From Ardenticatenaceae bacterium (lineage in GTDB: Bacteria; Chloroflexota; Anaerolineae; Promineifilales; Promineifilaceae), in contig JACKBS010000006.1 of the NCBI GenBank assembly GCA_020634435.1, positions 527,136-591,135 on the forward strand: 64,000 bases of DNA, read 5' to 3'. The notes beneath the pieces were generated by a model. The model was given only the letters and a program-made list of their open reading frames with translations. It ran no database searches and had not been told where the DNA came from. Of the stretch, positions 1 to 64,000 are shown piece after piece. How positions within the stretch are numbered: the first letter of the stretch is position 1; every line of letters starts with the position of its first letter. Both the position numbers and the translations under genes were made by a program.

Positions 1-658
1 CCGCGTCTTCGACGTGCAAAAATTCCCGAGTGGGTGTCCCGTCTCCCCAAACAACCAACTGTTTTGCTCCACTTTCAACTGCATCAAAGCATTTTTTGAT
101 GAGGGCGGGAATGACGTGGCTGCTTTTGGGATCAAAATTGTCCTCTGGCCCATATAAATTTACGGGGATGAGGTGAATAGCATTAAAATTATACTGTTGA
201 CGATATGCCTGTCCTTGTACCAGCATCATCTTTTTGGCAAGACCATAGGGTGCATTGGTTTCTTCAGGATAACCGGCCCAAATGTCATCCTCCCGAAACG
301 GAATTGCGGCAAATTTAGGATAAGAACAAATTGTGCTGATGCCCACAAATTTTTCAACGCCATGTAGGCGGGCTGCTTCCATGAGCTGAGTACCCATCAT
401 TAAGTTGTCGTAGAAAAATTCTCCAGGTCTTTCTCGATTGGCTCCGATGCCACCAACTACCGCTGCTAAATGAATTATGATGTCTGGGTTGATGTCGTTT
501 AAGGCTTGCTCAACTGCGTTTTGTTTCCGTAAATCATATTGAGCACTGCGTGGTACAAAGACGTTTTGACATCCCTCTGCATCGAGCCTCTTAACAAGAT
601 ACCGGCCCAGAAAACCGCTGCCGCCGGTTACCATAATTCGCTTGTTTTCCAAATTCAT
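1..658 (-). CDS. fcl: GDP-L-fucose synthase (GDP-4-keto-6-deoxymannose epimerase/reductase), C-terminus cut by window edge
   Basis: Not in ORF track because it runs off the edge. My reverse-strand translation from ATG 658 reads [21 protein letters not shown] (Rossmann GxxGxxG) ... PYGLAKKMM ... [23 protein letters not shown] ... [18 protein letters not shown], colinear with the Fcl/WcaG signature blocks. Confidence 0.8.
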
Positions 659-775
659 AATCGCCTCATTACAATCAAGTTGTTTCCTTGCCTGCGGATT
701 ATAAGTGAATGGGCCTAACCGGGCGAGTTTGCCCAAGGCTGGATAAGCAACTTTTCACTTTCCTCCTCCTCCCGC

Positions 776-787
776 TACAATTGACCC
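776..787 (+). promoter_or_regulatory. -10-like hexamer TACAAT followed by exactly 6 nt and ATG 788 (leaderless-type start)
   Basis: TACAAT at 776-781, then tgaccc, then ATG. No Shine-Dalgarno between. Same geometry recurs at 6 other operon-first genes in the window. Confidence 0.4.
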
Positions 788-1651
788 ATGATTTTAGTGA
801 CCGGTGCCACTGGCTTTATCGGCCGTTCCTTGATGCCTTCCCTGGAGCAGGAAGGGTTTGCTGCCCATGCCTATCTGGGGCGGATGAATGATCCCATTCA
901 GCTGCGGGCAGAACTGGATGGAATCACCACGGTGATCCACCTGGCGGGGTCCGAGGCGCGTGGGCGCGACCGGCTGCTGCACCATGTGGATGTGGATGGC
1001 AGTGAACGGTTGGTCGAAGAAGCGCGCCGCGCAGGAGTACAGCGCATCATCTTTGCCAGCCGGTTTGGCGCAGACCCCGCCAGTATGCACTCGCTGCTCC
1101 AGGCCAAGGGGCAGATTGAGCGGATGATCCAGCACAGCGGCATTCCCTATACCATTTTGCGCTCGACCTCGCTGTACGGCCGTTCCGACCGTTTTCTTGA
1201 GCTGATTGTGAGCCTGGGCATCTGGTCCTGGCCCTTTGTTTGGCTGCCCGGTGGCGGCAAGATGGCGCTGCAACCCCTGTGGGTGGAGGATTTTGTGCGC
1301 TGCCTGGTGCAGTCGCTCAGCCGACCCGATTTGATTAACAAAACCGTTACCGTGGCCGGGGCGGAACGGCTGCGTTACGCCAATTTGGTTCAGCTGCTGC
1401 TTGATGTGGCTGGCTACAAGCGGATTCCGCTGCCCGTGCCCATGCTGCTGTTACGGCCGTTAAACCGCCTCCTGCTCTACTGGTGGTATTGGCCCCCAGT
1501 CAGCCGCTACTTCATGGATCGCTTCTTTGTGCCCGAAGTGACCCAGCACGATACCGTCCTGCGCCAATTTGGGTTCCAGCCCGCGCGCGTACGCGATACG
1601 ATTAGCTATCTGCGTCGTCCTGGGCTGACGCTGCGCATGTTTAGACGGTGA
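788..1651 (+). CDS. NAD(P)-binding atypical SDR (NmrA/NDUFA9-like) protein
   Basis: N-terminal MILVTGATGFIGRSL Rossmann motif. 287 aa, typical length for complex-I NDUFA9-like / NAD(P)H-binding family. Confidence 0.65.
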   Translation: MILVTGATGFIGRSLMPSLEQEGFAAHAYLGRMNDPIQLRAELDGITTVIHLAGSEARGRDRLLHHVDVDGSERLVEEARRAGVQRIIFASRFGADPASMHSLLQAKGQIERMIQHSGIPYTILRSTSLYGRSDRFLELIVSLGIWSWPFVWLPGGGKMALQPLWVEDFVRCLVQSLSRPDLINKTVTVAGAERLRYANLVQLLLDVAGYKRIPLPVPMLLLRPLNRLLLYWWYWPPVSRYFMDRFFVPEVTQHDTVLRQFGFQPARVRDTISYLRRPGLTLRMFRR

Positions 1652-1703
1652 GAATTTGCCGCTGTGTGATGGGTTTACGGCCGTTTTTTGCTATGATACG
1701 GCC

Positions 1704-61849: not shown

Positions 61850-61878
61850 TTGACATCATCAAATGATCGCTTTATAAT
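61850..61878 (+). promoter_or_regulatory. perfect consensus sigma-70 promoter TTGACA-N17-TATAAT
   Basis: TTGACA 61850-61855, TATAAT 61873-61878. About 430 nt upstream of the next start codon (62311). Confidence 0.6.
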
Positions 61879-61897
61879 TGCCTTCCGTAAGTCGGTA

Positions 61898-61922
61898 AAT
61901 TGCAAATGCTGCATATGCAATT
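61898..61922. promoter_or_regulatory. operator-like nested palindrome AATTGCA-N11-TGCAATT containing TGCATATGCA
   Basis: Located about +13 to +38 relative to the predicted start of the consensus promoter. Confidence 0.35.
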
Positions 61923-62310
61923 GTTTGTATGTTTGTAATAAACCAGACCCTTGAGAAGAAGAGATTTTCTTGTTTATCTACAAAACGACCAAAACTCAAT
62001 CTTGTTTAACCAAGCACAGCTAGTTTGCTTATGCAAATTTAGGTGTGCTTTGTTTATTTAAATTCCTAACTGAAACTAAGCTCTGTCAGGCGCTGCTCAC
62101 ACAAGTCTTCTACTGAGTGCGTCAAGACGGACAAGAATAAATCTGGAGGAGGTGGTGCGATAGCATTATTTGGAGCTGTAATTACGAGCATCAATATTCA
62201 TGTTCGTAAGAAGCTGGCCAGCCGTTGCAATCAAAATATCAGCGGATTAATTTGGCCGGACCTTTTTTTGAAAAACCCCTTATTTCAAAACATGAGAGGA
62301 GGAAGATTTC

Positions 62311-64000
62311 ATGTTTAACACAAAGAAATGGGCGCTTATCGCTCTGATCGTTGCTCTTGGTGCAGTTGTTTTGGCAGCTTGTACCCCCACAACCGAAACC
62401 GTAACGGTTGAGGTTACCCGTGTTGTTACCGAAACAGTCGTCGAAGAAGGGCAGACTGTGGAAGTAACCCGCGTTGTTACTGAAACCGTCGTTGAGACGG
62501 TAGAAGTTGAACCCGATGCTCAGCCTGCTGGTCCCAAAGACCTGATCGTTTGTATGGCCCAAGAGCCGGACAGCCTGTATTGGTACGGAACTTCAATGTT
62601 GGCCGCTCAGGCCGTGCAGCATGCCATTTATGAGAACCTCATAACGACTTTATCCTATGACTACCAGGCACAAGGTCTGGAGAAATTGCCCAGCCTGAAC
62701 GATGGTGATGCCGTTTTAGAAAGCGTAGAAGTAAACGCTGGCGACACCGTTGTAAACGCTGGTGGTGAAGTTGTTGTTGTAGAAGATGGTACCATGCTGG
62801 TTACAAGCGATGGCGAAACGGTTGAATTCGCTGGTGAAGCTGTCATGATGGACCGTCTTGTTGTGGACTTCACCCTAAAGGCCCGCACTTGGTCAGATGG
62901 CGAACCGGTAAAAGCATCTGACTCCATTTACAGCTTTAATTTGCTATCAGACCCCGACACCCCAGCCAGTAAATTCACGGTTGAACGCACCGCCAGCTAT
63001 GAAGCGACCGGCGACCTTAGCACCCGTTGGACTGGTATTCCTGGTTACAAAGACTCCACCTTCTTCACAAACTTCTGGCAACCCTTGCCAGAGCACGTAT
63101 GGGGTTCTTTCAGCGCTGCTGAACTGCTCGAAGCAGAAGAGTCTAGCCGCATGCCGGTTGGCGACGGTCCATTCGTTGTCCAAGAGTGGATCGCTGGCGA
63201 CAGCATCCGCTTGACCCCGAACGAATTCTACTATCAAGAAGGTCTGCCCTATCTGAACAGCGTAACCTACAAGTTCATCCCCGACACCAACCAGCTGATC
63301 GCTCAGCTGCTGTCTGGCGCTTGCGACATTGGTACGCAGGATGGTATGGATGCTGGCCAGGCTCCGTTCCTCATCGAAGCTGAGAACAACGGCCTGCTGA
63401 CCCCCTACTTCCAGACCGGTACCGTGTACGAACACATCGACTTCGGTGTGAACAGCTACGGCGACTACGGTGATGGCGTTGGTCGTCCCGACTGGTTCGA
63501 AGATGTCCGCGTTCGTCAGGCGATGACGATGTGTACCGACCGCCAGAGCATGGTTGACAACATCCTGTTCGGCCGTTCCGAAGTTATCCACACCTACATC
63601 CCCAGCGTGCACCCGCTGTATCCCGAAGGTCTGACCGAATGGGCATACGACGTGGACGCAGCCAATGCCTTGCTCGACGAAGCTGGTTTCACCGATGGTG
63701 ATGGTGATGGTATCCGCGAGGATCCGGCCACCGGCACCCCATTTGCTGTCACCCTGGGCACGACCACGGGTAACGAAATGCGTCAGCAGCTGACCCAGAT
63801 CTTCAAAGAGAACATGCTGCAATGTGGTATCGATGTAGAACTGTACTACCTGCCGTCCAGCGAATGGTTTGCTGATGGTCCTGATGGTGTGCTGTTCGGC
63901 CGTCGTTTCGACCTGGGCGAATTTGCCTGGTTGACCGGTGTAGAACCGAGCTGCTCCCTGTACATGACTGACAGCATCACTGGTCCAGAAGAAGAAGGCT
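62311..64000 (+). CDS. ABC transporter substrate-binding lipoprotein, family 5 (oligopeptide/dipeptide/nickel type), 3'-truncated by window edge
   Basis: Not in the ORF track (no stop in window). SD GAGAGGAGGAAG. MFNTKKWALIALIVALGAVVLAAC lipobox. Later WSDGEPVKASD, GDGPFVVQEW, VYEHIDFG blocks typical of SBP_bac_5. Confidence 0.85.
   Translation, partial: MFNTKKWALIALIVALGAVVLAACTPTTETVTVEVTRVVTETVVEEGQTVEVTRVVTETVVETVEVEPDAQPAGPKDLIVCMAQEPDSLYWYGTSMLAAQAVQHAIYENLITTLSYDYQAQGLEKLPSLNDGDAVLESVEVNAGDTVVNAGGEVVVVEDGTMLVTSDGETVEFAGEAVMMDRLVVDFTLKARTWSDGEPVKASDSIYSFNLLSDPDTPASKFTVERTASYEATGDLSTRWTGIPGYKDSTFFTNFWQPLPEHVWGSFSAAELLEAEESSRMPVGDGPFVVQEWIAGDSIRLTPNEFYYQEGLPYLNSVTYKFIPDTNQLIAQLLSGACDIGTQDGMDAGQAPFLIEAENNGLLTPYFQTGTVYEHIDFGVNSYGDYGDGVGRPDWFEDVRVRQAMTMCTDRQSMVDNILFGRSEVIHTYIPSVHPLYPEGLTEWAYDVDAANALLDEAGFTDGDGDGIREDPATGTPFAVTLGTTTGNEMRQQLTQIFKENMLQCGIDVELYYLPSSEWFADGPDGVLFGRRFDLGEFAWLTGVEPSCSLYMTDSITGPEEEG

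What the first reader, a model, noticed from the sequence alone, without database searches (positions are those of the whole stretch)
1..64000. Hyper-abundant octamer palindrome ACGGCCGT (mostly AACGGCCGTT): a HIP1-like highly iterated palindrome
By hand scan I count about 119 exact copies of ACGGCCGT in 64 kb, roughly one per 540 bp. Examples are at 1453, 2362, 4802, 6061, 13382, 13412, 15487, 15527, 34564, 34576, 51062 and 61479.

Base composition predicts only about 1-2 copies (0.225^2 x 0.275^6 x 64000). Most copies carry A...T or AA...TT flanks.

Copies lie in genes on both strands and in all three phases. This is why the real proteins here are peppered with NGR, (E/Q)TAV and (E/Q)RPF tripeptides. 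Copies also occur in untranslated leaders, for example two copies 40 nt apart upstream of the kinase gene.

Phase independence argues for a DNA-level process (selection, biased repair or conversion, methylation) rather than protein-level selection. The best-known analogue is cyanobacterial HIP1 (GCGATCGC), whose role is still unresolved. The core here, CGGCCG/GGCC, is a classic restriction/methylation specificity.
Basis: partly seen in the sequence, partly recalled or inferred. Interest (0 to 1): 0.85.

Follow-up and report, generated by a model that had tools for sequence, protein, structure and literature searches.

The report
Hyperabundant ACGGCCGT palindrome in Chloroflexota genome
A filamentous Chloroflexota bacterium (family Promineifilaceae) carries the 8-base palindrome ACGGCCGT about once every 540 bases, some 50-100 times more often than chance, giving a second, independent example outside cyanobacteria of the still-unexplained "highly iterated palindrome" phenomenon.

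Summary
ACGGCCGT occurs exactly 119 times in 64 kb, against about 1 expected. The next most common palindromic 8-mer has 8 copies.

The copies are free-standing. They share no flanks. They lie in all three reading frames on both strands, and are as dense in non-coding as in coding DNA. They have distorted the proteome: the tripeptide TAV occurs 63 times against 8.7 expected.

The window comes from a Promineifilaceae genome (Chloroflexota). The same 8-mer is the top 8-mer in 15 of the 16 closest related genomes sampled, which span 50-61% GC, and in 86 metagenome contigs. Phage structural genes carry it at host density.

Sites are kept in position: 21 of 26 are conserved at 76% DNA identity, against 16% for all 8-mers. 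Third codon positions inside sites are conserved 62/64, against 57% outside.

The enriched unit is a CGGCCG core with an outer base chosen independently in each half. Sister lineages use other outer bases (GCGGCCGC, CCGGCCGG, or the core alone). Many other Anaerolineae avoid CGGCCG altogether.

In MutY, new sites arose in parallel, replacing a conserved serine.

It therefore behaves like cyanobacterial HIP1 but has a different sequence and phylum. No responsible methyltransferase was found, so the mechanism is inferred: a sequence-directed biased repair or conversion process.

The parts
1176..61486 (.). The set of 119 dispersed exact copies of ACGGCCGT. The mean gap is 511 bp. Of 54 called genes, 44 carry at least one copy.
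   Evidence: Spacing looks Poisson-like (CV 0.92, against 0.985 for random placement). Position within genes is uniform (KS p = 0.44). Sixty-nucleotide flanks are 30% identical, against 28% for random controls.
15487..15534 (.). Two non-coding copies 40 nt apart (15487-15494 and 15527-15534), upstream of the Ser/Thr kinase gene at 15601-18303.
33343..33394 (.). Two non-coding copies 44 nt apart, between the MFS transporter gene and the LytR_cpsA_psr gene.
34564..34583 (.). The closest pair of copies, with starts 12 nt apart, inside the LytR_cpsA_psr gene.
   Evidence: minimum gap 12.
59213..59220 (.). A copy inside mutY (58446-59552), in phase 2, overlying a conserved Arg-Pro. AACGGCCGTT is present at this position in all 16 HIP-carrying genomes. 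Outgroups have near-cognate sequences such as AGCGCCCGGT. The GCGGCCGC-dialect genome L020 has AGCGGCCGCT here.
58747..58754 (.). A second copy in mutY. In the MutY codon alignment it is present in nine of the 16 HIP genomes and absent from the more distant ones.
   Evidence: alignment column 301.
40001..46000 (.). A stretch with few copies and low GC (0.43-0.49) inside the glycosyltransferase/polysaccharide gene cluster. It holds 4 copies against 11.2 expected.
   Evidence: Poisson P = 0.014. The pattern fits younger or horizontally acquired DNA, but this is an inference.
61487..64000 (.). The last 2.5 kb of the window has no copy, against 4.7 expected.
   Evidence: P = 0.009. This was not followed up.

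Best explanation
What is shown. The window is chromosomal DNA of a Promineifilaceae bacterium (Chloroflexota, Ardenticatenia). Its lineage carries a HIP-type motif. The enriched unit is the hexamer CGGCCG plus a preferred base on each half-site, A and usually AA, chosen independently on the two sides. This yields (A)ACGGCCGT(T).

The motif is not a mobile element, not an RNA or peptide motif, and not a by-product of codon usage. A DNA-level, lineage-specific directional force turns near-cognate sequences (xCGxCCGx) into full sites, even at the cost of amino-acid replacements. It then holds them in place for long periods. The force acts alike on coding DNA, non-coding DNA and phage DNA. Its outer-base specificity has changed between sister lineages (A..T, G..C, C..G, or none).

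What is inferred (the mechanism I commit to). A protein that recognises CGGCCG sequence-specifically biases the correction of mismatches in or beside near-cognate sites towards the full site. The most plausible candidate is an orphan DNA methyltransferase derived from a restriction-modification system, working with a nicking or mismatch-repair activity. Mismatches would arise as replication errors or in recombination heteroduplexes. This is an Elhai-type ratchet, or biased gene conversion. The same bias restores sites that mutate, so it would also produce the observed positional conservation. A change in the specificity of the partner enzyme would produce a new dialect.
For: Over-representation:
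- 119 copies against about 1 expected.
- 112 copies in coding sequences against 13.8 under a protein-preserving null.
- Pooled over 0.92 Mb of clade DNA, 1691 copies against 22.8 expected.

DNA-level nature:
- All three phases and both strands are used, and non-coding density is about the same as coding density.
- Flanks are not shared.
- There is little extra symmetry beyond the first flanking base, so hairpin formation is not being selected.
- The proteome is distorted (TAV 63 against 8.7 expected).

Directional creation of sites:
- In MutY, the ancestral TAC AGC CGN (Ser in all 23 other sequences) became TAC GGC CGT in five genomes from at least three subclades.
- At one orthologous position, L014 and L008 have ACGGCCGT while L025 has its own dialect CCGGCCGG.
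- At another, 16 genomes have ACGGCCGT while L020 has its own dialect GCGGCCGC.
- In all, three orthologous sites in L020 have both outer bases switched.

Maintenance:
- 21 of 26 sites are conserved between the window and L001 at 76% identity, against 15.8% for all 8-mers and 3 of 11 for 75%-GC palindromes.
- Third codon positions inside sites are conserved 62/64, against 57% outside.

Core plus independent half-sites:
- Both outer bases are A in 119 sites, against 112.8 expected if the halves are independent. Dialects are seen in L020, L022, L025 and L027.

Acts on any DNA in the cell:
- Phage terminase, portal, major head and tape-measure genes carry 1.78 copies per kb.

A restriction-modification-type specificity is plausible:
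- CGGCCG is strongly avoided in many other Anaerolineae. L031, L034, L054 and L077 have 0 copies against 11-17 expected, with normal GGCC counts.

Density: about 1860 copies per Mb lies within the 300-2700 per Mb range reported for HIP1 (PMC4390886).
Against: - No CGGCCG-specific methyltransferase, Vsr homologue or nickase was found. The only m5C methylase in the sampled clade DNA sits next to a BsuBI/PstI-family endonuclease. The sample is only about 0.92 Mb drawn from many genomes, so this absence is weak evidence.
- A strong ongoing ratchet should deplete inner one-off variants. Their O/E is 0.5-0.8, against 0.5-1.35 in control Anaerolineae, so any depletion is slight and not convincing.
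- Positional conservation is equally what selection on a functional site predicts (Xu et al. 2018).
- Elhai's literal G-meC model does not fit an A-flanked site.
- HIP-rich phages could simply be long-resident prophages.
Confidence: 0.5

Rival explanations
1. The motif is an uptake or recombination signal, like DUS/USS or a palindromic Chi. On this view it is recognised during natural transformation or recombination. Fragments carrying it are taken up or recombined preferentially, so it spreads by molecular drive and is kept by selection. This is now proposed for cyanobacterial HIP1.
For: - Its density of about 1-2 per kb, its presence in genes in all frames with distortion of proteins, its conservation between species, and lineage-specific dialects around a conserved core all resemble DUS/USS (my own knowledge of Neisseria and Pasteurellaceae).
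- Dialects and conservation are shown here.
- HIP1 raises transformation efficiency in a methylation-dependent way (bioRxiv 10.1101/2024.09.10.611283). HIP1 abundance also co-varies with Type IV secretion system (T4SS) proteins, which that preprint reads as pointing to a DNA-uptake role (bioRxiv 10.64898/2026.06.24.733823).
Against: - Natural competence is not known for this clade, and no competence genes could be examined here.
- Phage structural genes carry the motif at full host density, which an uptake bias does not obviously predict.
- Known uptake sequences are not palindromes.
Confidence: 0.25
2. The motif is the binding site of a chromosome- or nucleoid-organising protein, selected for at the level of the host chromosome. 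Xu et al. 2018 proposed this for HIP1 from its periodicity.
For: - Strong positional conservation.
- Independent half-site preferences, as expected for a dimeric DNA-binding protein.
- Dense non-coding clusters of extended sites, next to a ParA-like gene in L193 and in an intergenic region of L220.
Against: - Phage hallmark genes show the same density.
- Spacing within 64 kb cannot be told apart from random.
- Periodicity on the 10-90 kb scale cannot be tested in one window.
- The proteome cost is hard to justify for roughly 10,000 or more sites per genome.
Confidence: 0.12
3. The copies are a dispersed miniature mobile element, or a REP/MITE-like repeat.
For: Some non-coding clusters of motif-containing repeats exist in related contigs (L193 and L220).
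Against: - Sixty-nucleotide flanks of the 119 copies are no more alike than random controls (0.30 against 0.28, maximum 0.52 against 0.50).
- 92% of copies lie inside genes in all phases.
- Sites are orthologous between genomes.
Confidence: 0.01
4. The excess is a by-product of amino-acid or codon usage, or of selection on peptides.
For: Phase 0 (Thr-Ala-Val) is the commonest phase, with 58 of 110 in-gene copies.
Against: - There is an 8-fold excess over a null that keeps every protein sequence and the codon usage, and a 53-fold excess over a codon-order shuffle.
- Non-coding density is the same as coding density.
- Synonymous positions inside sites are 97% conserved, against 57% outside.
- The reverse tripeptide VAT occurs at its expected frequency (8 against 8.7).
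Confidence: 0.01

Closest known systems
HIP1 (GCGATCGC) of cyanobacteria
   Same: - An 8-bp, 75%-GC palindrome built on a 6-bp core of restriction-site type (CGATCG there, CGGCCG here).
- Density of hundreds to thousands of copies per Mb, with O/E in the tens to hundreds.
- Found in genes in all frames and between genes.
- One-off variants concentrated at the first and last positions.
- Palindromic extensions to 10 bp.
- Positionally conserved between genomes beyond background, including at synonymous sites.
- Sporadic loss or replacement in related lineages.

Sources: PMC4390886 and PMC5861425.
   Different: - Different sequence and different phylum (Chloroflexota, Promineifilaceae).
- The outer base is A/T, not G/C, so Elhai's G-meC rule does not apply as written.
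- The cognate methyltransferases, known for HIP1 (DmtA/DmtC), have not been identified here.
- Periodicity was not testable.
- Here the motif is also shown at host density inside phage hallmark genes.
Alternate cyanobacterial HIPs (GGGATCCC, TCGATCGA, CAGGCCTG, GCsGC, rCCGGy)
   Same: - A different GC-rich palindrome takes over in particular lineages.
- Variants share a core while the outer bases differ (TCGATCGA against GCGATCGC), as ACGGCCGT, GCGGCCGC and CCGGCCGG do here.
   Different: - Those are sporadic exceptions inside a HIP1-bearing phylum.
- Here a whole family-level clade uses a CGGCCG core, with at least three dialects plus a core-only state.
DNA uptake sequences (Neisseria DUS, Pasteurellaceae USS)
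   Same: - About one copy per kb.
- Found in coding DNA, with effects on protein sequence.
- Conserved between related species.
- Lineage dialects around a conserved core, spread by molecular drive.

This comparison rests on my own knowledge, not on a test run here.
   Different: - DUS and USS are asymmetric 9-12-mers recognised by competence proteins.
- Here the motif is a perfect palindrome with independent half-sites.
- Competence is unknown in this clade.
Very-short-patch (Vsr/Dcm) repair bias in E. coli
   Same: A site-specific methyltransferase together with a mismatch endonuclease shifts oligonucleotide frequencies towards the recognition site. This is the mechanistic precedent for the inferred ratchet (my own knowledge).
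   Different: - The effect in E. coli is small, less than 2-fold.
- Here the excess is 50-100-fold.
- No Vsr homologue was found in the sampled DNA.

Membership tests
Highly iterated palindromes (HIP-type motifs; Elhai 2015, Xu et al. 2018) | A short GC-rich palindrome that is grossly over-represented (O/E in the tens to hundreds; 300-2700 copies per Mb). | tested here: met
   - 119 copies in 64 kb, which is 1859 per Mb.
- O/E is about 100 against shuffles, 24 against a Markov-3 model, and 8 against a protein-preserving null.
- Pooled over the clade DNA, O/E is 74.
Highly iterated palindromes (HIP-type motifs; Elhai 2015, Xu et al. 2018) | Dispersed and free-standing: present in coding DNA (all frames, both strands) and non-coding DNA, with no conserved flanks. 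| tested here: met
Highly iterated palindromes (HIP-type motifs; Elhai 2015, Xu et al. 2018) | One-base deviations are biased to the first and last positions, meaning a 6-bp core is the more constrained part. | tested here: met
   - In the window, position 1/8 variants number 1-11, while inner variants number 0-4.
- In the pooled DNA, outer one-off variants have O/E 1.5-4.7 and inner ones 0.5-1.45.
Highly iterated palindromes (HIP-type motifs; Elhai 2015, Xu et al. 2018) | Sites are positionally conserved between related genomes more than control octamers, and this is not explained by codon preference. | tested here: met
   - Window against L001: 21 of 26 sites conserved, against 15.8% for all 8-mers.
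- L007 against L014: 20 of 22, against 42%.
- L002 against L003: 7 of 9, against 19%.
- Third codon positions: 62/64 conserved inside sites, against 57% outside.
Highly iterated palindromes (HIP-type motifs; Elhai 2015, Xu et al. 2018) | A DNA methyltransferase specific for the motif or its core is encoded in the genome. | not testable with these tools
   - No whole genome could be fetched.
- Neither the window nor 0.92 Mb of clade DNA held a candidate.
- The only m5C methylase found (L179) is paired with a BsuBI/PstI-family endonuclease.
Highly iterated palindromes (HIP-type motifs; Elhai 2015, Xu et al. 2018) | Quasi-periodic distribution along the chromosome, with periods of 10-90 kb. | not testable with these tools
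   Only 64 kb is available. Within it, spacing cannot be told apart from random.
HIP1 proper | The sequence is GCGATCGC and the host is a cyanobacterium. | tested here: not met
   - GCGATCGC occurs 3 times in the window.
- The organism belongs to Chloroflexota.
REP / MITE-type dispersed repeats | Copies share an extended element of 20 to several hundred bp and are mostly intergenic. | tested here: not met
   - Flank identity is 0.30, against 0.28 for controls.
- 110 of 119 copies lie inside genes.
DNA uptake sequences (DUS/USS) | An abundant short motif with lineage dialects, in a naturally competent organism, recognised by a competence protein. | tested here: inconclusive
   Abundance and dialects are met. 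Competence and a receptor could not be tested. The palindromic form is atypical for this family.
Restriction-site avoidance (the usual fate of palindromes recognised by restriction-modification systems) | The recognition palindrome is under-represented. | tested here: not met
   - CGGCCG occurs 158 times against 28 expected in the window.
- Other 6-mer palindromes are avoided, for example CTGCAG at 1 against 22.7.
- Avoidance of CGGCCG is seen instead in other Anaerolineae.

The most novel reading that the evidence does not exclude
Promineifilaceae carry an independently evolved HIP system whose specificity can switch. A sequence-specific biased-conversion machine would be built on a domesticated CGGCCG restriction-modification enzyme. 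It would continuously rewrite all DNA replicating in the cell, both chromosome and phage, and would override protein conservation. Sister lineages would have retuned its outer-base specificity (A..T, G..C, C..G, or none), while neighbouring Anaerolineae still treat CGGCCG as a restriction target and purge it. If so, the on, off and dialect states within one family form a natural experiment that could finally identify the enzyme behind iterated palindromes in general.
Probability: 0.35. Interest if true: 0.85.

Novelty: new variant of a known kind. Interest (0 to 1): 0.72.

Why it matters
HIP1 has been an unsolved puzzle for some thirty years and has been treated as a peculiarity of cyanobacteria. 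A second, unrelated instance with a different core and in a different phylum shows the phenomenon is general.

This instance also offers more contrast than cyanobacteria do. Within one family there are genomes with the motif, without it, and with three different dialects. Neighbouring lineages purge the same hexamer. That pattern makes the responsible gene or genes findable by phylogenetic profiling, and it makes the choice between selection and biased repair directly testable.

There are practical uses as well:
- The motif is a compact barcode for assigning metagenome contigs and phages to Promineifilaceae, which are abundant filamentous bacteria in activated sludge.
- It measurably biases their protein sequences.
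- It marks likely recently acquired DNA.

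Tried and rejected
- **Mobile-element reading.** Rejected by the flank comparison.
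- **Hairpin or cruciform reading.** Rejected. Beyond the first flanking base the two sides are little more symmetric than independent half-sites predict; the largest further excess is at offset 4, z = 2.2.
- **Codon or peptide by-product.** Rejected by the two codon-aware nulls and by synonymous-site conservation.
- **Hunt for the methyltransferase or Vsr.**
  - Pfam scans of 50 window ORFs found no DNA methyltransferase or Vsr domain.
  - These found only a PstI-family restriction-modification system (L179), an MvaI/BcnI-family system (L109), an Eco57I-like enzyme (L220) and a Dam-like methylase (L093). None is a CGGCCG candidate.
- **Deamination or ratchet signature in one-off variants.** The signal is weak. 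ACGGTCGT/ACGACCGT has O/E 1.45 against 1.09 in controls, and other inner variants are only slightly below controls. I treat this as inconclusive.
- **Phages carrying the GCGGCCGC dialect.** A scan of viral contigs was swamped by high-GC phages and was uninformative.
- **Exact look-up of window proteins.** Two proteins were not on record, and one matched only short metagenome contigs. The source genome was therefore not identified beyond family level.
- **The asymmetric extension ACGGCCGTTTGTGGG.** Seen in L193, it is specific to that locus and not general.
- **Literature.** Nine full-text searches found no description of ACGGCCGT or AACGGCCGTT as an iterated palindrome, and none of HIP-type motifs in Chloroflexota. 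Papers outside the held library cannot be excluded.

Full report
**1. The observation**

One hundred dinucleotide-preserving shuffles gave a mean of 1.14 and never more than 4. Markov models of order 0 to 3 predict 1.3 to 4.9 copies.

It is by far the commonest 8-mer of any kind. The next ones are its own overlapping extensions, and the next palindromic 8-mer has 8 copies.

The hexamer core CGGCCG occurs 158 times against 28 expected. Many other 6-bp palindromes are avoided, for example CTGCAG (1 against 22.7), GTCGAC (0 against 8.3) and GGGCCC (4 against 31).

The full 10-mer AACGGCCGTT accounts for 55 of the 119 copies. An A before or a T after is present in 105. "Mostly AACGGCCGTT" therefore slightly overstates the case.

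**2. The excess is at the DNA level and survives codon-aware nulls**

I called 54 genes, supported by Pfam. Of the 119 copies, 110 lie wholly inside genes, on both strands and in phases 0/1/2 at 58/31/21.

Nine copies lie in the 5.5 kb of non-coding DNA. That is 1.63 per kb, against 1.88 per kb in coding DNA.

Two nulls were run on the 112 copies in coding sequences:
- Shuffling synonymous codons within each gene, which keeps proteins and codon usage, leaves 13.8 +/- 3.7 copies (maximum 26).
- Shuffling codon order leaves 2.1.

The first null is itself inflated because the proteins have been shaped by the motif:
- Thr-Ala-Val occurs 63 times against 8.7 expected, and 59 of the 63 are encoded by ACGGCCGT.
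- Asn-Gly-Arg occurs 16 times against 3.0.
- The reversed tripeptide Val-Ala-Thr is at expectation (8 against 8.7).

Copies are spread evenly along genes (KS p = 0.44), and 44 of 54 genes have at least one.

**3. It is not a mobile element or a hairpin**

The 60 nt flanking each copy are no more similar between copies than flanks of random positions. Mean identity is 0.30 against 0.28, and the maximum is 0.52 against 0.50.

Spacing is close to random (CV 0.92 against 0.985 for random placement, P = 0.23), with no short-range periodicity.

Pooling 1687 sites from this clade gives the following half-site consensus going outward: A (66%), A (42%), G (44%), G (44%). Beyond the first flanking base the two sides are little more symmetric than independent half-sites predict; the largest further excess is at offset 4 (z = 2.2). 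Longer palindromes are therefore not being selected.

**4. Whose DNA it is**

The gene content points to Chloroflexota. It includes BTAD-AAA-TPR regulators, a large Ser/Thr kinase, Kelch/DUF11 proteins, LytR_cpsA_psr, a xanthine-dehydrogenase-type operon and many glycosyltransferases.

The MutY gene (58446-59552) is 85-86% identical in protein to MAGs labelled Ca. Promineifilaceae, Ca. Leptofilum and "Anaerolineaceae NAT123". NCBI taxonomy places Ca. Leptofilum, Ca. Leptovillus and Ca. Trichofilum in Promineifilaceae, Promineifilales, Ardenticatenia.

One window protein is found exactly in ENA metagenome assemblies, but only on short contigs.

**5. The motif is a clade trait with dialects**

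Among 80 loci around MutY from different species, ACGGCCGT is the top 8-mer in 15 of the 16 closest ones (L001-L014, L016, L017); in L012 and L016 an overlapping extension ties or leads, and it is the top palindromic 8-mer in all 16. Density there is 0.6-2.8 per kb, although GC ranges from 50 to 61%. More distant Anaerolineae have none or one, apart from intermediate counts in L021 (7) and L027 (6).

Sister lineages enrich the same core with other outer bases:
- GCGGCCGC in L020 (Ca. Trichofilum aggregatum, 38 copies in 12 kb) and in L022.
- CCGGCCGG in L025 (37 copies in 21 kb).
- The bare core in L027 (60 CGGCCG against 14.6 expected).
- Close relatives such as L015, L018 and L019 show no enrichment.

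Treating each half-site separately, the 5' base is A in 84% of window half-sites. The number of sites with A on both sides (119) matches independence (112.8 expected). L020 and L022 prefer (C)G, and L025 prefers (C)C.

The unit is thus a CGGCCG core plus a lineage-specific, symmetric half-site preference.

By contrast, many other Anaerolineae loci contain no CGGCCG at all despite normal GGCC counts. Examples are L031 (0 against 11.5), L034 (0 against 13.3), L054 (0 against 17.5) and L077 (0 against 14.3). Others lack GGCC entirely, such as L043 (0 against 108) and L035 (1 against 134). This is the usual signature of restriction pressure on those sequences.

**6. Sites are held in place**

| Pair | DNA identity | HIP sites conserved | All 8-mers conserved | 75%-GC palindromes |
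|---|---|---|---|---|
| Window - L001 (15.2 kb) | 76% | 21 of 26 | 15.8% | 3 of 11 |
| L007 - L014 | 85% | 20 of 22 | 42% | not listed |
| L002 - L003 | 79% | 7 of 9 | 19% | not listed |
| L011 - L013 | 74% | 10 of 16 | 13% | not listed |

Third codon positions inside sites are identical in 62 of 64 cases, against 57% of third positions elsewhere in the same alignments. The same holds against L002, L003, L007 and L014.

This reproduces, for a different motif and phylum, the conservation result Xu et al. reported for HIP1 (PMC5861425). One caveat applies. A correcting mechanism that restores mutated sites would give the same pattern as selection.

**7. Sites are created directionally**

A codon alignment of MutY from 29 genomes shows three things.
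- **Parallel gain.** An ancestral TAC AGC CGN (Tyr-Ser-Arg, with Ser in all 23 other sequences, outgroups included) has become TAC GGC CGT (Tyr-Gly-Arg, a full site) in L005, L006, L011, L008 and L014, with L013 one step away. On the MutY tree these genomes fall in at least three separate subclades. This is parallel gain at the cost of a conserved residue.
- **Dialect divergence over a conserved Arg-Pro.** Outgroups read AGCGCCCGGT or similar. All 16 HIP genomes read AACGGCCGTT, and L020 reads AGCGGCCGCT, its own dialect.
- **Dialect divergence at a third position.** L014 and L008 have ACGGCCGT, while L025 has CCGGCCGG.

Altogether, three orthologous sites in L020 carry GCGGCCGC where the others carry ACGGCCGT, with both outer bases changed and no intermediates.

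The numbers are small and rest on a single-gene tree. Even so, the picture is of near-cognate seeds being driven to whichever dialect the lineage uses.

**8. Breadth, including phages**

A search for two copies of AACGGCCGTT within 30 nt found 33 stretches in IMG/VR. About 19 of them are motif-dense, at roughly 0.8-3.7 per kb.

Of those loci, 86 are dense, totalling 449 kb and spanning GC 0.43-0.64.

The dense viral stretches encode real phage proteins: small and large terminase, portal, major head, head protease and tape measure. These hallmark genes carry 27 copies in 15.2 kb. That is 1.78 per kb, the host density.

Pooled over 0.92 Mb of motif-dense DNA there are 1691 copies against 22.8 expected.

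**9. What drives it**

I could not find the enzyme. Neither the window nor the 0.92 Mb sample contains a candidate CGGCCG methyltransferase or a Vsr homologue.

The methylases found belong to a PstI-family system, an MvaI/BcnI-family system and an Eco57I-like system, or are Dam-like. The PstI-family system fits the window's avoidance of CTGCAG.

Because the sample is a small fraction of many genomes, this absence says little.

Inner one-off variants are only slightly rarer than in control Anaerolineae. The one transition that would result from deamination of the central cytosine (ACGGTCGT/ACGACCGT) is mildly elevated, with O/E 1.45 against 1.09. This is suggestive at best.

**10. Explanations weighed**

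The explanation I favour, at about 0.5, is a sequence-directed biased repair or conversion process tied to a CGGCCG-recognising enzyme. This is an Elhai-type ratchet (PMC4390886), generalised because the outer base here is A rather than G. It accounts for all of the following:
- the independence from reading phase;
- the cost to the proteome;
- the parallel gains;
- the dialects;
- the equal density in phage genes;
- the conservation of sites.

The main rival, at about 0.25, is an uptake or recombination signal of the DUS/USS/Chi type. This is now proposed for HIP1. It also explains dialects and conservation, but it explains the phage data less easily.

A nucleoid-protein binding site, at about 0.12, is suggested by two things: the independent half-site preferences expected of a dimeric binding protein, and dense non-coding clusters in related contigs. 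Those clusters are L193, next to a ParA-like gene, and L220.

**11. Novelty**

Full-text searches found no description of this motif, nor of HIP-type motifs in Chloroflexota. The HIP literature read here deals only with cyanobacteria.

I class it as a new variant of a known kind. It has the HIP phenomenology but a different core, outer-base rule and phylum. It adds a within-family series of on, off and dialect states, together with core avoidance in neighbouring lineages.

Noticed in passing
Related loci L026, L031, L034, L041, L054, L060, L077, L078 (CGGCCG) and L035, L040, L043, L045, L046, L055, L056, L058, L063, L065, L071, L075, L079 (GGCC): Many other Anaerolineae loci of about 21 kb contain no CGGCCG (0 against 10-17 expected) although GGCC is at normal levels. 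Another set contains almost no GGCC at all (0-2 against 50-155 expected). This looks like strong avoidance driven by EagI-type and HaeIII-type restriction in relatives of the clade that hyper-accumulates CGGCCG.
   Followed up: partly
window 1-64000 (whole window); L179:10143-12251: The window strongly avoids several 6-bp palindromes:
- CTGCAG 1 against 22.7
- GTCGAC 0 against 8.3
- CTCGAG 0 against 8.2
- GAGCTC 1 against 10.8
- GGGCCC 4 against 31
- GGCGCC 7 against 37.5

A motif-dense metagenome contig of the same clade (L179) encodes an m5C methylase next to a BsuBI/PstI-family endonuclease. This would explain the avoidance of CTGCAG.
   Followed up: partly
L193:580-1434: A 1.4-kb metagenome contig has a ParA-like ATPase gene followed by non-coding DNA with about 18 motif copies, 12.6 per kb. 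Many copies take the form of an asymmetric repeat, ACGGCCGTTTGTGGG. It looks like an iteron or centromere-like array. This extension is not found at other loci.
   Followed up: partly
L220:8320-8860: An intergenic region of about 540 bp holds ten copies of the extended palindrome (G)AAAACGGCCGTTTT(C), spaced 40-70 bp apart. The sequence between copies is largely unrelated. No replication or partition gene lies next to it.
   Followed up: partly
window 40001-46000 and 61487-64000: Two stretches are poor in the motif: 4 copies against 11.2 expected, and 0 against 4.7. The first coincides with the lowest GC in the window (0.43-0.49) and lies inside a glycosyltransferase/sulfotransferase cluster. 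It may be more recently acquired DNA.
   Followed up: partly
window 5904-7108: An IS3-family insertion sequence with two ORFs: HTH_Tnp_1 (5904-6269) and an rve integrase core (6293-7108). It carries only one copy of the motif.
   Followed up: no
window, all sites; pooled clade DNA: There is a weak but persistent strand-symmetric skew around sites. G is enriched on the 5' side and C on the 3' side out to at least 10 nt (31-44% G). The window's second most common palindromic 8-mer is CTGGCCAG, and TGGCCA occurs 63 times against 33 expected.
   Followed up: no
window 15601-18303: A 900-aa protein with two matched protein-kinase stretches and TPR repeats. Two non-coding motif copies lie immediately upstream of it.
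   Followed up: no
window 56847-57419: An AbiEii/DUF6036-type nucleotidyltransferase (toxin-like) gene lies just upstream of a metallo-beta-lactamase-fold gene and mutY.
   Followed up: no
L109:8314-10735: A motif-dense IMG/VR contig carries an MvaI/BcnI-family restriction endonuclease, an N4/N6 DNA methylase and an IS1595 transposase side by side. Some "viral" contigs may therefore include host or island DNA.
   Followed up: no
L087, L108, L091: Three IMG/VR contigs from different samples are the same or closely related phage (99.7% and about 95% identity). Between the 95%-identical pair, 16 of 17 motif sites are conserved.
   Followed up: partly
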